This document shows positions 9,001 to 63,700 of a DNA stretch of 64,000 nt, one piece after another. The DNA comes from Octopus sinensis (lineage: Eukaryota): NCBI RefSeq assembly GCF_006345805.1, contig NC_042998.1, positions 144,708,001 to 144,772,000 of the forward strand. The letters are read 5' to 3'. Position numbers: made by a program. Within the stretch, counting starts at the first letter, position 1. Every line of letters begins with the position of its first letter.

Positions 9001-12000
9001 AAAAACCCTGCACAAACCTAGCTGATTGAATGAGCTATTAATCAAACAATCAATTAGTTAATTGGTTAAATGGTTAACCAACTTGCCTGATAATAATAAA
9101 AAGTGAAATAGAGCCAATGGATGGGTTTACAATTCACATAATGAACCTCCTGAGATACAACAAAGATAACATTAAGTTTTCATGTGTAGTACAAACCCAT
9201 AATTCTTAGGTTTAAAAATCTGGAAAAAATGATATTTTACATGAGAAAACAGTAATAGTATTGGTTTCTAGGTTGTTGTGGGTTGAGTTTAGTTCCTCTT
9301 TACATCCAGCCCTAAATAGTAGAAACTCACTCTCTGTTAATGTTCAGGTTTACTTTGAGAAAATACAAACCCTACCTATAAACATTTCAAGCTAAAAATC
9401 AAACCAGTATAGAGGGCTTATATTGAAGCAGGTTATAAAATAGGAATTAGGAAGCTTGAAGGTATTATAAACTAATATAAATACTGTAAAGTGGCTCATG
9501 TTAGGAAGTGTATCCAACCATAGAAACCATGCCAAAACTGAGTCATTAAAAGCAGAATGTGGTCTTCTGAGTTTACAGATTCTATCAAAGCATCCGGCCC
9601 AATTCAGCATGGAAAGTGAATTTTATGATAATGATGATGATGTAATGCGATGATTTATTTAAAAAAAATATGTTAGCAGAGCTGAATACATGTTTATTAG
9701 ATCTGTCAGGTCCTGCTAGCACAACACAACATCATAAATATTAAAATGTATTATTGCATTGAGGTTGAGGGTTGAATTTCAATTTTAAACTGGATGACAT
9801 TAAATAAATCAAGCATAAAATAAAAATACAAAACATAAGCTGTGTGAATTTTTTTTTTAAAGTTTGAACTTTGCACTTTCTAATTCCCTCAATGAATTAT
9901 CCTAGATTATGTTAGGGTTTCATTCTGTTTGGCAAAGTTAAATTTAACTTTTATTTAAAACTTTTACATTAGCTAGATGCATGGCTGTGTGGTTAAGAAG
10001 CTCACTCGAGTCTCACTGCATAGCACCATGGGTAAGTGTATTCTATATACAACTTAACCTCAGGACAACCATTGTCTTGTAAGTGAATTTGGTAAATGGG
10101 AACTGTGTGAAAGCCCATTGTGTGTGTGTGTATATATACACACATACTTATACATATACGTGTATGTTGCCCCCCCTCCCCCTAATCACTGCTTGACAAT
10201 TGGCATAATTTTGTACTTAGCAGTTTTGCTAAAAGGATTCATAGAACAAGTATCAGATTTCAAAAAAATAATTACTGGGGTCAATTTGTTCAACTAAAAC
10301 CTTTCAAGACAGTAACCCAACATAGCTGTCAACGCTGGATTAACCACAAAATAAGCATATGCTTAGGGCATCAGGGGAAAGGAGGTACCACAGAAATGGT
10401 AAATAGTTTGTGACACAAAAACAATCACTTGAAACTTGCTGAAATGATATTCAGGATGCTTTATCTCTACTAAGTAAATATAGAAACGAATGTATTAAAT
10501 AAGATTAATTTTGAGGATCTGACTAAAGACTTAGCAATTAAAAAAGATAGGAGAAAACTTTTCTAATATATATAAAATCGAAGTATACAAAAATACACAT
10601 TATTTTCCATCTTACTCTTAGTATTGTTTCATTTTGAATAATAAAAATGCATTTTTTTTGGCTTATTATTGTTTACATTTTGAATTACATATATATACTC
10701 TCTTTACTCTTTTACTTGTTTCAGTCATTTGACTGCGGCCATGCTGGAGCACCGCCTTTAATCGAGCAACTCGACCCCGGGACTTATTCTTTTGTAAGCC
10801 CAGTACTTATTCTATCAGTCTCTTTAGCCCAACCGCTAAGTAACAGGGACATAAACACACCAGCATCGGTTGTCAAGCAATGCTAGGGGGACAAACACAG
10901 ACACACAAACACACACACGCATATATATATATATACATATATACGACGGACTTCTTTCAGTTTCCGTCTACCAAATCCACTCACAAGGCTTTGGTCGGCC
11001 CGAGGCTATAGTAGAAGACACTTGCCCAAGGTGCCACGCAGTGGGACTGAACCTGGAACCATGTGGTTGGTAAAGAAGCTACTTACCACACAGCCACTCC
11101 TGCGCCTATATGGGGGCATCAAAATTTTTTTTAAGTGCTTAGGGCTTCTATGAGTCTTAATCAGGCCATGATGGCTGCAGTCTATTGACAGAAAAGTAGA
11201 AGAATAAAAATGTAATTTCACAATTCTTTTTTCTTTTTTGTGTGTGTGTTTGGAATAAGGCATTAAAAAACATTGACTGTTGAGTAAATGACAGCAGAAA
11301 TCCTTGCCCAGCATTAAAAAAATTGTTTTTAAAAAAAGAAGAAAACACACAAGGTCATAATGTTATTACATGTGTGAAGCAATTTACACAGAAAAACAAA
11401 GAAAATTAAATGAAAGTTCTCCCAAATTATTAAACAGAAGAAAGGGTTACAAAATCACATAAAATAAGCAGGAAAATTTAAACAAAACCAGTTAAAAGAG
11501 GTGAGAGGTTTGTATTGCTGATAGTAAACATCAAATGCACTCATAATACAAGGTTTCAAAGCAAAAGCAAATACTAAGAGATGATCTATGCATCATGCTA
11601 GCAAGGGGAAAATTTGATGGAATAAATGGAAGCAATGAGCAGTGTACAGTTAGAGACAAGAGAATATTAGTGGAGATGTGCTATTGTTGAAGACTAGAGT
11701 GAGTAGATGCAGCTAGAATCTTATCAAATATTTCTGCTCCTTCAGTTCCAGAGCAGCCACATGATCACAGGGATATGACAGCAGTGCGCACTCACCATGA
11801 TCTTTTCTCGGCACAACTTGTCTCTTTTCCTAACATCAGTTTTTTCAGCTTTCAATCTTTCAATTTCAAGTTCTTTGTTCTGTGAGAAATCACACATTAT
11901 TTTGTTTTATCAAGTCTATTTGCTATAACATATGCCCATTGAGTATTTACACATTGTGAGTCAAATACTTTGCACCAACTACTGCAAGTTAATGCAACAT

Positions 12001-60700: not shown

Positions 60701-63700
60701 TTAGTGTATTTCCATTCTCCATTCAGATTTTCCAAAGTCATTCCCAAGCAGTTTGAGAAAAGAGCAATAACAATTATTTGATGACAAGTTCAGGCCAGAA
60801 AATTCACCCAGAGATTCAGATCTTGATGCAAGTATATAATAGTGTTTTATTCTAGTAAACTACATTTACACAATCAGAAATGGCTTCTACAAAGAAGTTC
60901 AATCTGTAATGGTAATGTCACAGGCAGATCCTCCCAACAACCATCAAAGTCAACTAGGCCAGATTTATTCTAACCCTAACTATAATCCACACATTATATC
61001 TAGAGGGTTGATCAATTAACTGAAACTGAGTTTTACTTCATAGTTATCTGTTGGGTAGCTCCTAGCTGGTTTTTAACAGAAGTTTTAACATCCACATCAG
61101 TAGAAAGTTACTATTCCATGTGTTCTAGCTATGCTCTGTCCATGTTTGGCATATTGTATAAGTTTCATCCTTGTAAGAATGAGAAGGGGAATATAAGATA
61201 GAGTGGCTGTTTTATGTGAGGTGCTGATAGAAGTATAATGGGAGGAACAGATATATTGTGAGGGAGTGGTAGTGAACAGTAACACAAAAGACAGTGTTGA
61301 TGGTGATGGGGGGAGGAGAATAATGGAAGAGACAGGAGCAAGGGTAAGGGATACTGAAGTAGGAGGAGATAATGAGAAAGAGAAAAAGAGAGTGATGTGG
61401 ATAATAAGGTGGGTCGAGTGGGGGGGACCTCATGTTGTCCCACATTATGTGTGTGTGTGTAGTACACACACACACACATATACACATGCAAACTCAGAGG
61501 ATAATAGAAAGACCACAATTTCAAGTTGTCAAATGGTGGTGGTGGTGGACAAACACAGACACACACATATATATATATATTACACACACTAAGCTTCCAC
61601 AGAGTTTCTGTCTACCAAATTCAACCATGAAGGATTGGTCAACCTGTAGCAATAGTAAAAGATACTTGCCCAAGATGCCACACAGTGGAACTGAATGTGA
61701 AACTATAGAATTACAAATCAAGCTTCTTATCCACATAGCTATGCCTACGCCTATAAGAGTACATATGTCTGCAGAGGGATTTGAACCTGTGATCCTCAGA
61801 TCACTATTGGATTAGTCTTAAAAGGTTAAATATTCATTTATTATTTTATTTATTTCAGTCATTTGACTGTGGTCATGCTGGAGCACCATCTTGAAGGATT
61901 TTAGTCAAACAAATCGACCCCAGAACTTATTGTTTCAGCCTAGTACTTATTCTATTGGTCTCTTTTGCTGAATTGCTAAGTTACGGGGATGTAAACACAT
62001 CAACACTGGTTGTCAAATGGTGATGGGGGGGGGGGGACAAACACAAATGGCTTCTTTCAGTTTCTGTCTATCAAATCTACTCACATGGCTTAGGTTGGTC
62101 CTAGGCTATAGTAGAAGACACTTGCTCGAAGTGTCATACAGTGGAACTGAACCCAGAACCATGTGGTTGGGAAGCAAGCTTCTTACCACACAGCTACACC
62201 TGCACCTTTCTGACTAATATTAATTCTAATAAATCTAACTTGAAATTTGACAGCACAATTACATTTATTTTTTATTATGCTTTGACAATTGGAAAGGAAC
62301 AATAGTAAAACAAGACCATTTATGTTGTAATGAAGGATGATAAAAATAATGTGGATAACAATGAAACTAGGTTAGAAGCTTTATTGTTGCCTAATTAGGA
62401 ACAATAACATTTCTGAGTGCCACATAGGAATAGGTGTGGCTATGTGGATAAGAAGCTGGTTTCCAGACCATGTTATCTCAGGTTCAATCCCTCAGTGTGT
62501 ACTCAGGGCAAGTATCTTCTACTATAAAGTCAAACTGGTCAAAACCTTATGAGTGGATTTGAAAGATGGTAACTGGAAGAAGTTAATCATATGTGTGTGT
62601 GTGTGTGTGTGTGACATCCAGAAAAGGATGGTCTTTGTCATACAGGTGATGTTCAGCTCTAGTCTTCTATGAAAAATATATCTGATCAAGGGGGATATAT
62701 TATCTTGCCTACAAATAGGTGAGGGTTGGTGACAAGAAGGATGTATAGCTGTAGAAAACTTATCTCCTTTAACAAATTGCAAGGAAAGAAAAGTGGATGT
62801 TAAAATGATGATGATGATGATGAGAGGAAAACCAGAAAAGGATGATCTTAGAGGAAGCTTGCATATTGTATAGCAATATTTGATAAGATGAGAAAGAGAA
62901 TTTAGAATGGTAAGAGTTTTCTCTAAATATCAGATATATATATGTAGGGTCTTGTCTTGCCACTTAGAGACCACACTAATGCCAACATGAACTAAAAAGC
63001 ACCCAGTACACTCTGTAAAATGGTTGGCATTAAGAAGAACATCCTGTCATAGAAACCATGGCAAAGCAGACATTAGAGTTTGATGCAGTCCTCTGACTCA
63101 CCATCTCCTGTTGAACTACCCAACTCATGCTACTATAAAAATTGGATGATGAGACTCATGAAACTAATGTGGAAGAAATTTAACAACTGACCATTAGACT
63201 GGTCAAGTGTTGAATTCCTACATATAAATATAATAAATATATAGAAGGAATAGCACAATGAAAATATACCTTTATTAATTTATCCTGGTGTGCAATAGTT
63301 TTCTGGTTCTCAGCCAATTCATCCTTCAGTGACTCAGTTGAATCAGATAACCATTTGTCACTAGCCATCTGCTTCTAGAAACACAAAAATAGTTGAGCCA
63401 AAGGAATAATTTGCATACATCTCATTCACACAAACATACATATATACACACACGCTGCACAAGCATAGCTGCACAGGTTAAATCAACATGGTTTTTAGTA
63501 GGATGGCAATTACAGTGACTAAATGCTCTTCCCAATAGTAAAAAATGAAGGTTTTTACAATTGTATAGCCCCTTTTTTTTTTCAAAATAAAAATAAACCA
63601 AAAAACAAAACATTGTAGAGATTGTCCTTCAATAGAAGATAATTTTTACTGTACATTCTCAATCAAAATTTACTGTCAATTTGCTTTCTTGTTTGACAAC

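What the first reader, a model, noticed from the sequence alone, without database searches (positions are those of the whole stretch)
11796..63374. One exon per repeat: array of symmetric 84-nt exons building a modular coiled-coil rod
Seen: 17 phase 0-0 exons over 52 kb. Eleven are exactly 84 nt (28 aa, 4 heptads); the others are 105, 126, 75 (x3) and 66 nt. Each 84-nt exon is one copy of xLExQLExExxx(R/K)KxxENKE(Q/R)RLxDKIK, with core positions at 2, 6, 9, 13, 16, 20, 23 and 27. Established: 28 residues is the repeat of myosin II and paramyosin rods, and the motif resembles myosin-tail/cingulin segments. Inference: the rod grew by tandem exon duplication. Any 84/105/126-nt exon can be skipped without losing frame or heptad register, so splicing could tune rod length in ~4-nm steps, like a molecular ruler or filament-forming protein. 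I do not recognise the gene.
Basis: partly seen in the sequence, partly recalled or inferred. Interest (0 to 1): 0.85.

Follow-up and report, generated by a model that had tools for sequence, protein, structure and literature searches.

The report
Coiled-coil gene built from heptad-phased exons
A stretch of an animal gene encodes a long alpha-helical rod in 17 small exons that all start and end at the same point of the seven-residue coiled-coil pattern, an old and tidy case of a known way of building repetitive proteins.

Summary
The exon array is real and lies on the minus strand. Sixteen have canonical AG/GT splice sites. The sixteenth, 17676-17759, has an AAG acceptor and a GC donor and is doubtful.

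Only part of the array is a recognisable repeat. In leave-one-out profile searches, exons 7-13 score E 1e-5 to 1e-11. Exons 14, 6 and 15 are marginal. Seven exons, including three of the eleven 84-nt ones, are not recognised.

A stronger regularity holds for all 17. Each starts at heptad position c and ends at b, with I/L/V as the penultimate residue in 17 of 17.

The duplication is old and under protein-level selection. Identity by codon position is 0.60/0.61/0.37, introns are unrelated, and there are no decayed copies.

No link to myosin tail or cingulin was found, and there is no 28-residue charge periodicity.

Splicing-tuned rod length is permitted by frame and register but is untested. 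Chicken BG genes, with one heptad per 21-nt exon, are a published precedent.

The parts
63270..63374 (-). Exon 1 of the array, 105 nt, 35 aa (5 heptads).
   Evidence: TAG acceptor and GTATAT donor. Starts in register c, with I as penultimate residue. Not recognised by the repeat profile.
60601..60675 (-). Exon 2, 75 nt, 25 aa.
   Evidence: AG/GT sites score 12.6/10.1. Its ends look like the repeat (L at residue 2, I penultimate, K last), but the profile E is 560.
58990..59115 (-). Exon 3, 126 nt, 42 aa (6 heptads).
   Evidence: AG/GT sites. AlphaFold2 gives a single helix over residues 2-41, pLDDT 97.4. Eight of 12 a/d positions are hydrophobic. An alternative in-frame donor would give a 78-nt form.
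50453..50518 (-). Exon 4, 66 nt, 22 aa.
   Evidence: AG/GT sites score 13.3/9.5. Same starting register, I penultimate.
50036..50119 (-). Exon 5, 84 nt, 28 aa. Loosely repeat-like.
   Evidence: AG/GT sites score 13.1/10.0. Shares 6-11 of 28 residues with the other copies. Leave-one-out E is 760.
47892..47966 (-). Exon 6, 75 nt. A repeat copy with a 3-residue deletion.
   Evidence: Profile E 0.093, 10.4 bits. Aligns with a gap at columns 11-13.
44319..44402 (-). Exon 7, 84 nt, repeat copy.
   Evidence: Leave-one-out E 1.4e-6. Sites score 16.6/11.4.
36923..37006 (-). Exon 8, 84 nt, repeat copy.
   Evidence: Leave-one-out E 1.1e-5. Sites score 12.6/11.0.
33755..33838 (-). Exon 9, 84 nt, repeat copy.
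   Evidence: Leave-one-out E 3.6e-9. Its 28 residues lie inside one continuous predicted helix, pLDDT 94-97, in a fold of the 62-codon genomic ORF around it.
31167..31250 (-). Exon 10, 84 nt, repeat copy.
   Evidence: Leave-one-out E 4.3e-6.
29281..29364 (-). Exon 11, 84 nt, repeat copy.
   Evidence: Leave-one-out E 8.6e-8. The intron to exon 12 is 408 nt.
28789..28872 (-). Exon 12, 84 nt, repeat copy.
   Evidence: Leave-one-out E 1.3e-11. An alternative in-frame donor would give a 105-nt form.
27383..27466 (-). Exon 13, 84 nt, repeat copy.
   Evidence: Leave-one-out E 1.3e-9.
24842..24925 (-). Exon 14, 84 nt, diverged repeat copy.
   Evidence: Leave-one-out E 0.022, 12.4 bits. Sites score 14.4/11.0.
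23612..23686 (-). Exon 15, 75 nt. A repeat copy with a 3-residue deletion.
   Evidence: Profile E 0.31, 8.7 bits. Gap at columns 11-13.
17676..17759 (-). Exon 16, 84 nt. A doubtful exon.
   Evidence: AAG acceptor and GC donor, site scores -2.4/2.0. Profile E 110. It does keep the common register, with L at residue 2 and I penultimate. Leaving it out does not change the frame.
11796..11879 (-). Exon 17, 84 nt. Heptad-patterned but not a recognisable repeat copy.
   Evidence: CAG acceptor and GTGAGT donor, so the gene goes on beyond it. Profile E 120.

Best explanation
This is an internal part of one large protein-coding gene on the minus strand of an animal genome with long, transposon-filled introns. 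It encodes an alpha-helical, heptad-patterned rod, most likely a two-stranded coiled coil.

The rod is cut into 16 or 17 phase 0-0 exons. Each begins at heptad position c and ends at position b. Exons 6 to 15 descend from one 28-residue (four-heptad) exon by tandem exon duplication. That duplication happened long ago and the copies have since been kept by selection on the protein. The other exons follow the same exon-to-heptad rule but have lost, or never had, recognisable sequence similarity.

The 75-nt exons are copies with an internal 3-residue deletion. This puts a local heptad discontinuity inside the exon and leaves the junction register intact.

Shown: the exons, their splice sites, their homology, their register, their helical propensity, and the age of the duplication.

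Inferred:
- All exons are spliced in series.
- The product is a dimeric coiled-coil spacer or scaffold about 70 nm long. This takes 482 residues at about 0.15 nm per residue, a rise recalled from textbooks.
- The conserved polar core residues (K/R at a-position 13, E/D at a-position 20) set pairing specificity or local flexibility.
For: - Same strand, collinear order and canonical sites in 16 of 17 exons.
- With the same site and composition filters, the plus strand gives 0 candidates and the minus strand 18 rows, which cover 15 of the 17 exons, 4 of them a second time as alternative-donor forms, plus one segment in an interspersed repeat (the site matrices were trained on the exons).
- Leave-one-out profile E of 1e-5 to 1e-11 for exons 7-13, with noise at 5.0 bits or less.
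- The DNA profile matches stop at the exon borders, model positions 2-84.
- Identity by codon position over 28 exon pairs is 0.596/0.606/0.366. Intron flanks give 0.28-0.32, against 0.268 expected from base composition.
- Only 21.8% of random 28-codon windows on this strand are open, yet all 17 segments are open.
- The hydrophobicity profile of the 9 aligned 28-residue exons peaks at period 3.5, and 423 of 10000 column shuffles reach that value.
- The register with the first a-position at residue 6 is best or tied best in 17 of 17 exons and uniquely best in 13.
- The penultimate residue is I/L/V in 17 of 17 exons, and residue 2 is L/V/Y in 15 of 17.
- There are 0 prolines in 482 codons.
- AlphaFold2 gives single long helices for exon 3 (pLDDT 97.4) and through exon 9.
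- The ESM Atlas neighbours of exons 3 and 9 are all coiled-coil families.
Against: - No transcript evidence of any kind was available, so no junction is verified.
- Exon 16 has poor splice sites.
- Three of the 8 core columns are polar, and 46% of residues are charged (108 K+R and 113 D+E of 482). Parts of the rod could therefore be a weak coiled coil or a single stable helix.
- The period-3.5 signal is only modestly significant (423 of 10000).
- The fold of exon 9 included 34 intron-coded flanking residues and used no alignment.
- No relative was found in Pfam or the PDB, so the gene has no name. Exon-sized queries have little power, and the Atlas matches share only 102-138 of 256 features, below the 170 that the tool gives for true family members.
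- No further exon was found in 1-11795 or 63375-64000, so both ends of the gene are unseen.
Confidence: 0.75

Rival explanations
1. Reader's reading. The array is a set of cassette exons whose regulated skipping sets the length of a rigid rod in steps of about 4 nm, working as a molecular ruler or tunable filament subunit.
For: - Every exon is phase 0-0 and starts and ends at the same heptad position, so any subset gives an in-frame, in-register product.
- The titin PEVK region, built of 26-28-residue motifs, is heavily alternatively spliced with isoform-specific length (abstract and passages of PMC7691732).
- Chicken BG tails vary in length through their heptad-exon region (PMC4046983 passages and reference list).
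Against: - No expression data were available.
- Splice sites of 16 of 17 exons are close to consensus, with no obviously weak cassette apart from exon 16.
- The copies are old and individually conserved at the protein level. That fits each having its own constitutive place in the rod.
Confidence: 0.2
2. The eight consecutive 84-nt exons (7-14) form a mutually exclusive cluster, so only one or a few enter each mRNA, as in Dscam-type or myosin heavy chain alternative exons.
For: - Eight equal-length, homologous, tandem exons lie in a row.
- Tandem duplicated exons are the usual source of mutually exclusive splicing (abstract of PMC9741552, seen in the listings).
Against: - Phase 0-0 exons give no frameshift penalty for joint inclusion.
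- Introns are 408-7312 nt, so there is no steric block.
- All sites are U2-type GT-AG.
- No 10-mer (with up to 1 mismatch) is shared by more than 4 of the 10 upstream or downstream 300-nt flanks, the same as random pieces, whose maximum was 3-5 in 20 control sets. No selector-like element was therefore seen.
- Flanking exons 6 and 15 are copies of a different length.
Confidence: 0.1
3. It is the rod of a myosin II or paramyosin type thick-filament protein, or a cingulin relative.
For: - The unit is 28 residues long.
- The myosin rod has a 28-residue charge repeat (titles in the reference list of PMC2121044).
- Myosin_tail_1 clusters appear at rank 24 among the Atlas neighbours of exon 9.
Against: - No Myosin_tail_1 match for 17 of 17 exons at E up to 10.
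- The repeat profile finds no myosin in the PDB.
- Charge harmonics at period 28 and 28/3 are 0.13 and 0.14, below several others. 6643 of 10000 shuffles reach the period-28 value.
- The best 14-residue charge contrast is reached by 8876 of 10000 shuffles.
Confidence: 0.05
4. The segment is a highly charged single alpha-helix (ER/K-type) spacer and not a coiled coil.
For: - 46% of residues are charged and there are 0 prolines.
- Only 5-9 of 28 residues per repeat are hydrophobic, and the middle of each unit (columns 7-15) has almost no core residue.
- The monomer folds are straight helices.
Against: - Conserved L/I/V at columns 2, 6, 16, 23 and 27 form a heptad-spaced seam.
- Atlas neighbours are coiled-coil families.
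Confidence: 0.1
5. Chance ORFs, or a dead pseudogene array.
For: One member (exon 16) has poor splice sites.
Against: - All 17 segments are open, against 21.8% for random 28-codon windows.
- First and second codon positions are conserved while third positions are near saturation.
- Profile E-values reach 1e-11.
Confidence: 0.02

Closest known systems
Chicken MHC BG genes (butyrophilin-like): cytoplasmic tail encoded by many 21-nt exons
   Same: A coiled-coil-forming region is encoded by a long array of small symmetric exons whose length is a whole number of heptads. Tail length varies through that region (PMC4046983 passages and reference 64 in its list).
   Different: BG exons encode one heptad (7, sometimes 8, residues) and, by that paper's account, are split within codons. 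Here each exon is four heptads (28 residues), phase 0-0, and separated by introns of kilobases. No Ig or transmembrane exon was seen in the window. No sequence relation was tested.
Titin PEVK region (26-28-residue motifs; exon-based peptides; extensive alternative splicing)
   Same: The unit is about 28 residues, and isoform length is set by exon inclusion (PMC7691732 abstract and passages). That each PEVK motif equals one exon of about 84 nt is recalled, not seen in a call.
   Different: PEVK is proline-rich and disordered. This array has 0 prolines in 482 codons and is predicted helical.
Myosin II and paramyosin rods
   Same: A heptad coiled coil with a 28-residue super-repeat (reference titles in PMC2121044; listings).
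   Different: No sequence match and no charge periodicity here. That myosin rod exons do not follow the 28-residue repeat is recalled, not tested.
Tropomyosin
   Same: The only PDB chains touched by the repeat profile (3u1a, 3u1c, 1ic2), over 20 residues. It is a generic two-stranded coiled coil.
   Different: E 0.53-0.80 is not significant. The repeat length differs.
Fibrillar collagen 54-bp exons and nebulin 35-residue modules (recalled, not seen in any call)
   Same: Classic cases of one repeat unit, or a whole number of units, per symmetric exon, explained by exon duplication.
   Different: Different folds and sequences. These are comparisons of gene architecture only.

Membership tests
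Alpha-helical heptad coiled coil (structural class) | Hydrophobic residues at a and d positions with 3.5-residue periodicity | tested here: met
   Period 3.5 is the strongest harmonic of the column hydrophobicity profile (22.2), and 423 of 10000 shuffles reach it. Five of 8 a/d columns are hydrophobic and 3 are polar.
Alpha-helical heptad coiled coil (structural class) | Continuous helix without helix breakers | tested here: met
   0 Pro and 6 Gly in 482 codons. AlphaFold2 gives helix 2-41 for exon 3 and helix 2-51 through exon 9. Both are monomer, single-sequence folds.
Alpha-helical heptad coiled coil (structural class) | Two or more helices wound together | not testable with these tools
   No multimer prediction is offered, and the joined product was left out.
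Myosin tail (Pfam Myosin_tail_1) / myosin II and paramyosin rod | Significant match to the family profile | tested here: inconclusive
   0 of 17 exons match at E up to 10. Queries of 22-42 residues have little power, and the joined query was left out.
Myosin tail (Pfam Myosin_tail_1) / myosin II and paramyosin rod | 28-residue periodic charge distribution with alternating acidic and basic zones | tested here: not met
   The period-28 harmonic is 0.13, reached by 6643 of 10000 shuffles. The best 14-residue arc contrast is reached by 8876 of 10000.
Myosin tail (Pfam Myosin_tail_1) / myosin II and paramyosin rod | Motor domain upstream in the same gene (myosin only) | not testable with these tools
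   The gene runs off the window. Only 626 nt lie upstream of exon 1.
Cingulin | Named significant hit to a cingulin sequence or family | tested here: not met
   No cingulin appears in the Pfam, PDB or Atlas outputs. Power is low for exon-sized queries.
Exon-per-repeat modular gene (collagen, BG or PEVK type architecture) | Each repeat unit is coextensive with one exon | tested here: met
   Protein and DNA profile matches span model positions 1-28 and 2-84 and stop at the splice sites.
Exon-per-repeat modular gene (collagen, BG or PEVK type architecture) | Symmetric exons of one phase class | tested here: met
   17 of 17 are open in frame 0 from acceptor to donor, with lengths divisible by 3.
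Exon-per-repeat modular gene (collagen, BG or PEVK type architecture) | Exons are homologous to each other | tested here: met
   This holds for 10 of 17: exons 7-13 strongly, exons 14, 6 and 15 marginally. The other 7 are not recognised.
Mutually exclusive exon cluster | Equal-length homologous tandem exons | tested here: met
   Exons 7-14 are 8 x 84 nt.
Mutually exclusive exon cluster | A mechanism enforcing exclusivity: frameshift, steric block, incompatible spliceosomes or competing intronic pairing | tested here: not met
   Exons are phase 0-0, introns are at least 408 nt, and all sites are GT-AG. No shared flank element was seen beyond random controls. That k-mer test is coarse.
Mutually exclusive exon cluster | Only one exon of the cluster per transcript | not testable with these tools
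   No transcript data.

The most novel reading that the evidence does not exclude
Every one of the 17 exons is a self-contained, heptad-phased module running from position c to position b. Any combination of them therefore splices into an in-frame, in-register rigid rod. On this reading the gene is a combinatorial length kit for a coiled coil: a stiff counterpart of the titin PEVK spring. Conserved K/R and E/D residues at successive a-positions would act as a periodic pairing code that fixes the register, or a one-heptad stagger, between chains.
Probability: 0.1. Interest if true: 0.7.

Novelty: new member of a known kind. Interest (0 to 1): 0.3.

Why it matters
This is a clean case in which exon borders follow protein periodicity exactly. 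In 17 of 17 exons the border falls between heptad positions b and c, including the exons that no longer resemble the repeat.

That pattern supports growth of a coiled-coil rod by duplication of a four-heptad exon. It also means exon loss, gain or skipping would be structurally tolerated.

If transcripts showed graded inclusion, it would be a rare example of a rigid rod whose length is set by splicing. If not, it is one more orderly repeat gene. The architecture has published precedents, and the gene itself may already be in the source genome's annotation, which could not be checked here.

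Tried and rejected
- **Superseded result.** The leave-one-out figures were wrong for exons 5 and 9, because my parser kept the last domain row and not the best one. One search replaces them. Exon 9 became E 3.6e-9 and exon 5 stayed unrecognised.
- **Extra or decayed copies.** A protein profile against 2879 ORF segments and a DNA profile against the whole window found none on either strand.
- **Further exons outside the array.** A scan of 1-11795 and 63375-64000 found none with coiled-coil composition.
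- **DNA self-comparison.** 0 of 281 blastn self-hits touch an exon.
- **Family searches, exon by exon.**
  - Pfam on all 17 exons gave only two sub-threshold chance rows: TolA_bind_tri at E 0.012 and Peptidase_S68 at E 0.18.
  - PDB phmmer on 4 of the 17 exons (3, 7, 9, 17) gave nothing below E 1.
  - The PDB profile search gave tropomyosin at E 0.5-0.8.
  - The ESM Atlas on exons 3 and 9 gave mixed coiled-coil families with low shared-feature counts.
- **RNA genes.** Rfam and tRNA scans found 0.
- **Literature.** Six searches found no paper on an array of 84-nt coiled-coil exons. The two searches on '84 bp/nt exon(s)' returned 0 papers.
- **Left unused as irrelevant to a eukaryotic gene.** Genome contigs (prokaryotes only), and the phage, plasmid and E. 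coli collections.
- **Left out.** The joined 482-residue product was not built, searched or folded.

Full report
**What is there**

The window has no N and is 36-37% G+C. A scan for AG-(open frame)-GT segments rich in E, K, Q, R, L and D placed every segment of the finding on the minus strand.

In 5'-to-3' order the exons are:

| Exon | Coordinates | Length (nt) |
|---|---|---|
| 1 | 63270-63374 | 105 |
| 2 | 60601-60675 | 75 |
| 3 | 58990-59115 | 126 |
| 4 | 50453-50518 | 66 |
| 5 | 50036-50119 | 84 |
| 6 | 47892-47966 | 75 |
| 7 | 44319-44402 | 84 |
| 8 | 36923-37006 | 84 |
| 9 | 33755-33838 | 84 |
| 10 | 31167-31250 | 84 |
| 11 | 29281-29364 | 84 |
| 12 | 28789-28872 | 84 |
| 13 | 27383-27466 | 84 |
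| 14 | 24842-24925 | 84 |
| 15 | 23612-23686 | 75 |
| 16 | 17676-17759 | 84 |
| 17 | 11796-11879 | 84 |

Introns are 333 to 8471 nt.

Sixteen exons have a YAG acceptor behind a pyrimidine tract and a GT donor. Exon 16 has an AAG acceptor and a GC donor. Its site scores are -2.4 and 2.0, far below the other exons. The scoring matrices were trained on the other 16 exons, so this contrast is partly circular. Exon 16 is doubtful, and dropping it does not change the frame.

**Is it more than chance?**

A profile of nine 28-residue exons was searched against all 2879 six-frame ORF segments of at least 15 residues. It found no copy outside the listed exons on either strand.

The fair test is leave-one-out. 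It replaces, where my parser kept the wrong domain row for exons 5 and 9.

- Exons 7-13 are recovered at E 1.1e-5 to 1.3e-11.
- Exon 14 scores E 0.022, exon 6 scores 0.093 and exon 15 scores 0.31.
- Exons 1-5, 16 and 17 are not recognised (E of 110 or more, or no hit).
- The best non-exon segment scores 3.6-5.0 bits.

Eight of the eleven 84-nt exons are members at E below 0.05. The 75-nt exons 6 and 15 are copies with a 3-residue gap at columns 11-13.

**A regularity that covers all 17 exons**

I counted hydrophobic residues in each of the seven possible heptad registers, exon by exon. The register with the first a-position at residue 6 is best or tied best in 17 of 17 exons and uniquely best in 13.

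- The penultimate residue is I, L or V in 17 of 17 exons.
- Residue 2 is L, V or Y in 15 of 17.
- The last residue is K or R in 13 of 17. The last codon is AAG or AAA in 12, which also fits the donor consensus.

Every exon therefore starts at heptad position c and ends at b. This includes the six exons with no detectable similarity to the repeat (1-4, 16, 17). Five of those six are uniquely best in this register.

The register breaks implied by the 25- and 22-residue exons lie inside those exons. As a result, junction register is kept whichever exon is present.

**Coiled-coil character**

In the nine aligned 28-residue exons the strongest harmonic of mean hydrophobicity is at period 3.5. Its power is 22.2, and 423 of 10000 column shuffles reach it.

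- Columns 2, 6, 16, 23 and 27 are hydrophobic.
- Column 13 (an a-position) is K or R in 8 of 9 copies.
- Column 20 (an a-position) is E or D in 8 of 9.
- Column 9 (a d-position) is variable.

Summed over exons there are 108 K+R, 113 D+E, 0 Pro and 6 Gly in 482 codons.

AlphaFold2 folds exon 3 alone as one helix over residues 2-41, with mean pLDDT 97.4. Exon 9 could not be folded alone because it is under 30 residues. I folded the contiguous 62-codon genomic open frame that contains it. The model has one helix over residues 2-51, with pLDDT 94-97 across the exon, including its Gly-containing middle. Thirty-four of those residues are intron-coded, so this shows helical propensity only.

ESM Atlas neighbours of exons 3 and 9 are a mixture of coiled-coil families: CCDC144C, CAST/ERC, SPAG5, HOOK, tropomyosin, rootletin, intermediate filament and myosin tail. 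They share 102-138 of 256 features, below the 170 that the tool gives for true family members. The class is clear. The family is not.

**Age and selection**

- Among exons 7-14 (28 pairs), identity is 0.596 at first codon positions, 0.606 at second and 0.366 at third.
- The 84 nt of intron on either side are 0.316 and 0.281 identical, against 0.268 expected from base composition.
- None of 281 blastn self-hits touches an exon.
- A DNA profile of the eight exons finds no decayed copy, and its matches end at the splice sites.
- Amino-acid identity barely falls with distance along the array, from 11.6 of 28 for neighbours to 10-11 at distance 3-6.

The duplication is therefore old and synonymous sites are saturated. 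The copies are held by selection on the protein, and nothing suggests an array that is still expanding.

**Comparison with known families**

Searches were made exon by exon. The joined 482-residue product was not built, searched or folded, and this limits sensitivity.

- Pfam gave no family for 15 of 17 exons and two sub-threshold chance rows. None of the 17 matched Myosin_tail_1.
- The repeat profile found only three tropomyosin chains in the PDB, at E 0.53-0.80.
- phmmer with 4 of the 17 exons found nothing below E 1.
- The myosin rod is defined by a 28-residue charge repeat (reference titles seen in PMC2121044). Here the charge harmonics at period 28 and 28/3 are 0.13 and 0.14. 6643 of 10000 shuffles reach the period-28 value. 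The best 14-residue charge contrast is reached by 8876 of 10000 shuffles.

The likeness to myosin is thus one of unit length only.

The closest published architecture I found is the chicken BG gene family. Its cytoplasmic coiled-coil tail is encoded by many 21-nt exons of 7, sometimes 8, residues, and it varies in length through that region (passages and reference list of PMC4046983).

The titin PEVK region is the known case of a roughly 28-residue unit with isoform length set by exon inclusion (abstract and passages of PMC7691732). PEVK is proline-rich and disordered, unlike this array.

Six literature searches found no description of an array of 84-nt coiled-coil exons.

**Rival readings**

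Mutual exclusion of exons 7-14 is suggested by their equal length. No enforcing feature was seen, however. The exons are phase 0-0, the introns are at least 408 nt, and all sites are GT-AG. No 10-mer is shared by more than 4 of 10 flanks, the same as in random controls.

A single-alpha-helix spacer is suggested by the 46% charge. The conserved heptad-spaced L/I/V seam argues for pairing.

It has no evidence for or against it here.

**What stayed unchecked**

- The source organism. Nothing in the window looked human: there were no Rfam hits at all in 64 kb.
- Any transcript evidence.
- Any search of large protein collections.
- Both ends of the gene. No further exon with this composition lies in 1-11795 or 63375-64000, and exon 17 ends in a good donor, so the gene continues off the window.

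**Verdict**

This is a real and tidy gene segment, but architecturally ordinary. It is an old tandem-exon-duplicated coiled-coil rod whose exon borders keep heptad phase.

Noticed in passing
window 40614-43322 (+), with related pieces at 54175-56472 and 39458-39729: A retroelement sits inside intron 7. The ORF 41445-42803 matches RVT_1 at E 1.8e-27, with a PHD-like finger at E 9.2e-5. The G+C-rich block at 40-44 kb coincides with it. Diverged copies (69-81% identity) lie in intron 3. Only 10 of the 32 ORFs of at least 90 aa were scanned. Its state of preservation was not examined.
   Followed up: partly
window 21179-21571 (-): An ORF matches the Mos1 transposase HTH domain (HTH_48, E 4e-19). 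This is a mariner-type transposon remnant in intron 15.
   Followed up: partly
window 6226-6629, 10699-11113, 18781-19155, 23150-23559, 51518-51928, 61844-62207; partial copies near 7190-7337, 47419-47560, 59721-59882: An interspersed repeat of about 400 bp occurs in both orientations at 67-91% identity, throughout the introns and the downstream flank. It is SINE-like in size, but there was no tRNA or Rfam match.
   Followed up: no
window 12682-13480: A 296-bp unit is repeated 2.7 times in tandem at 99% identity, in intron 16. The 12-14 kb bin has the most extreme GC skew of the window, -0.41. Its open frames produced false exon candidates.
   Followed up: partly
window 3712-4245 and 5208-5679; also 627-936 and 43505-43663: Inverted repeats of about 480-530 bp at 87-96% identity bracket roughly 1 kb, as in a terminal-inverted-repeat transposon. 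Two stretches are self-complementary palindromes, at 87% and 80% identity.
   Followed up: no
window 59038-59115 and 28768-28872 (-): In-frame alternative donors would turn exon 3 into a 78-nt form and exon 12 into a 105-nt form. Nothing shows that they are used.
   Followed up: no
columns 13 and 20 of the 28-residue repeat (exons 5, 7-14): Two successive a-positions carry conserved opposite charges: K/R in 8 of 9 copies and E/D in 8 of 9. A one-heptad stagger between chains would bring them face to face. That is my inference and was not tested.
   Followed up: no
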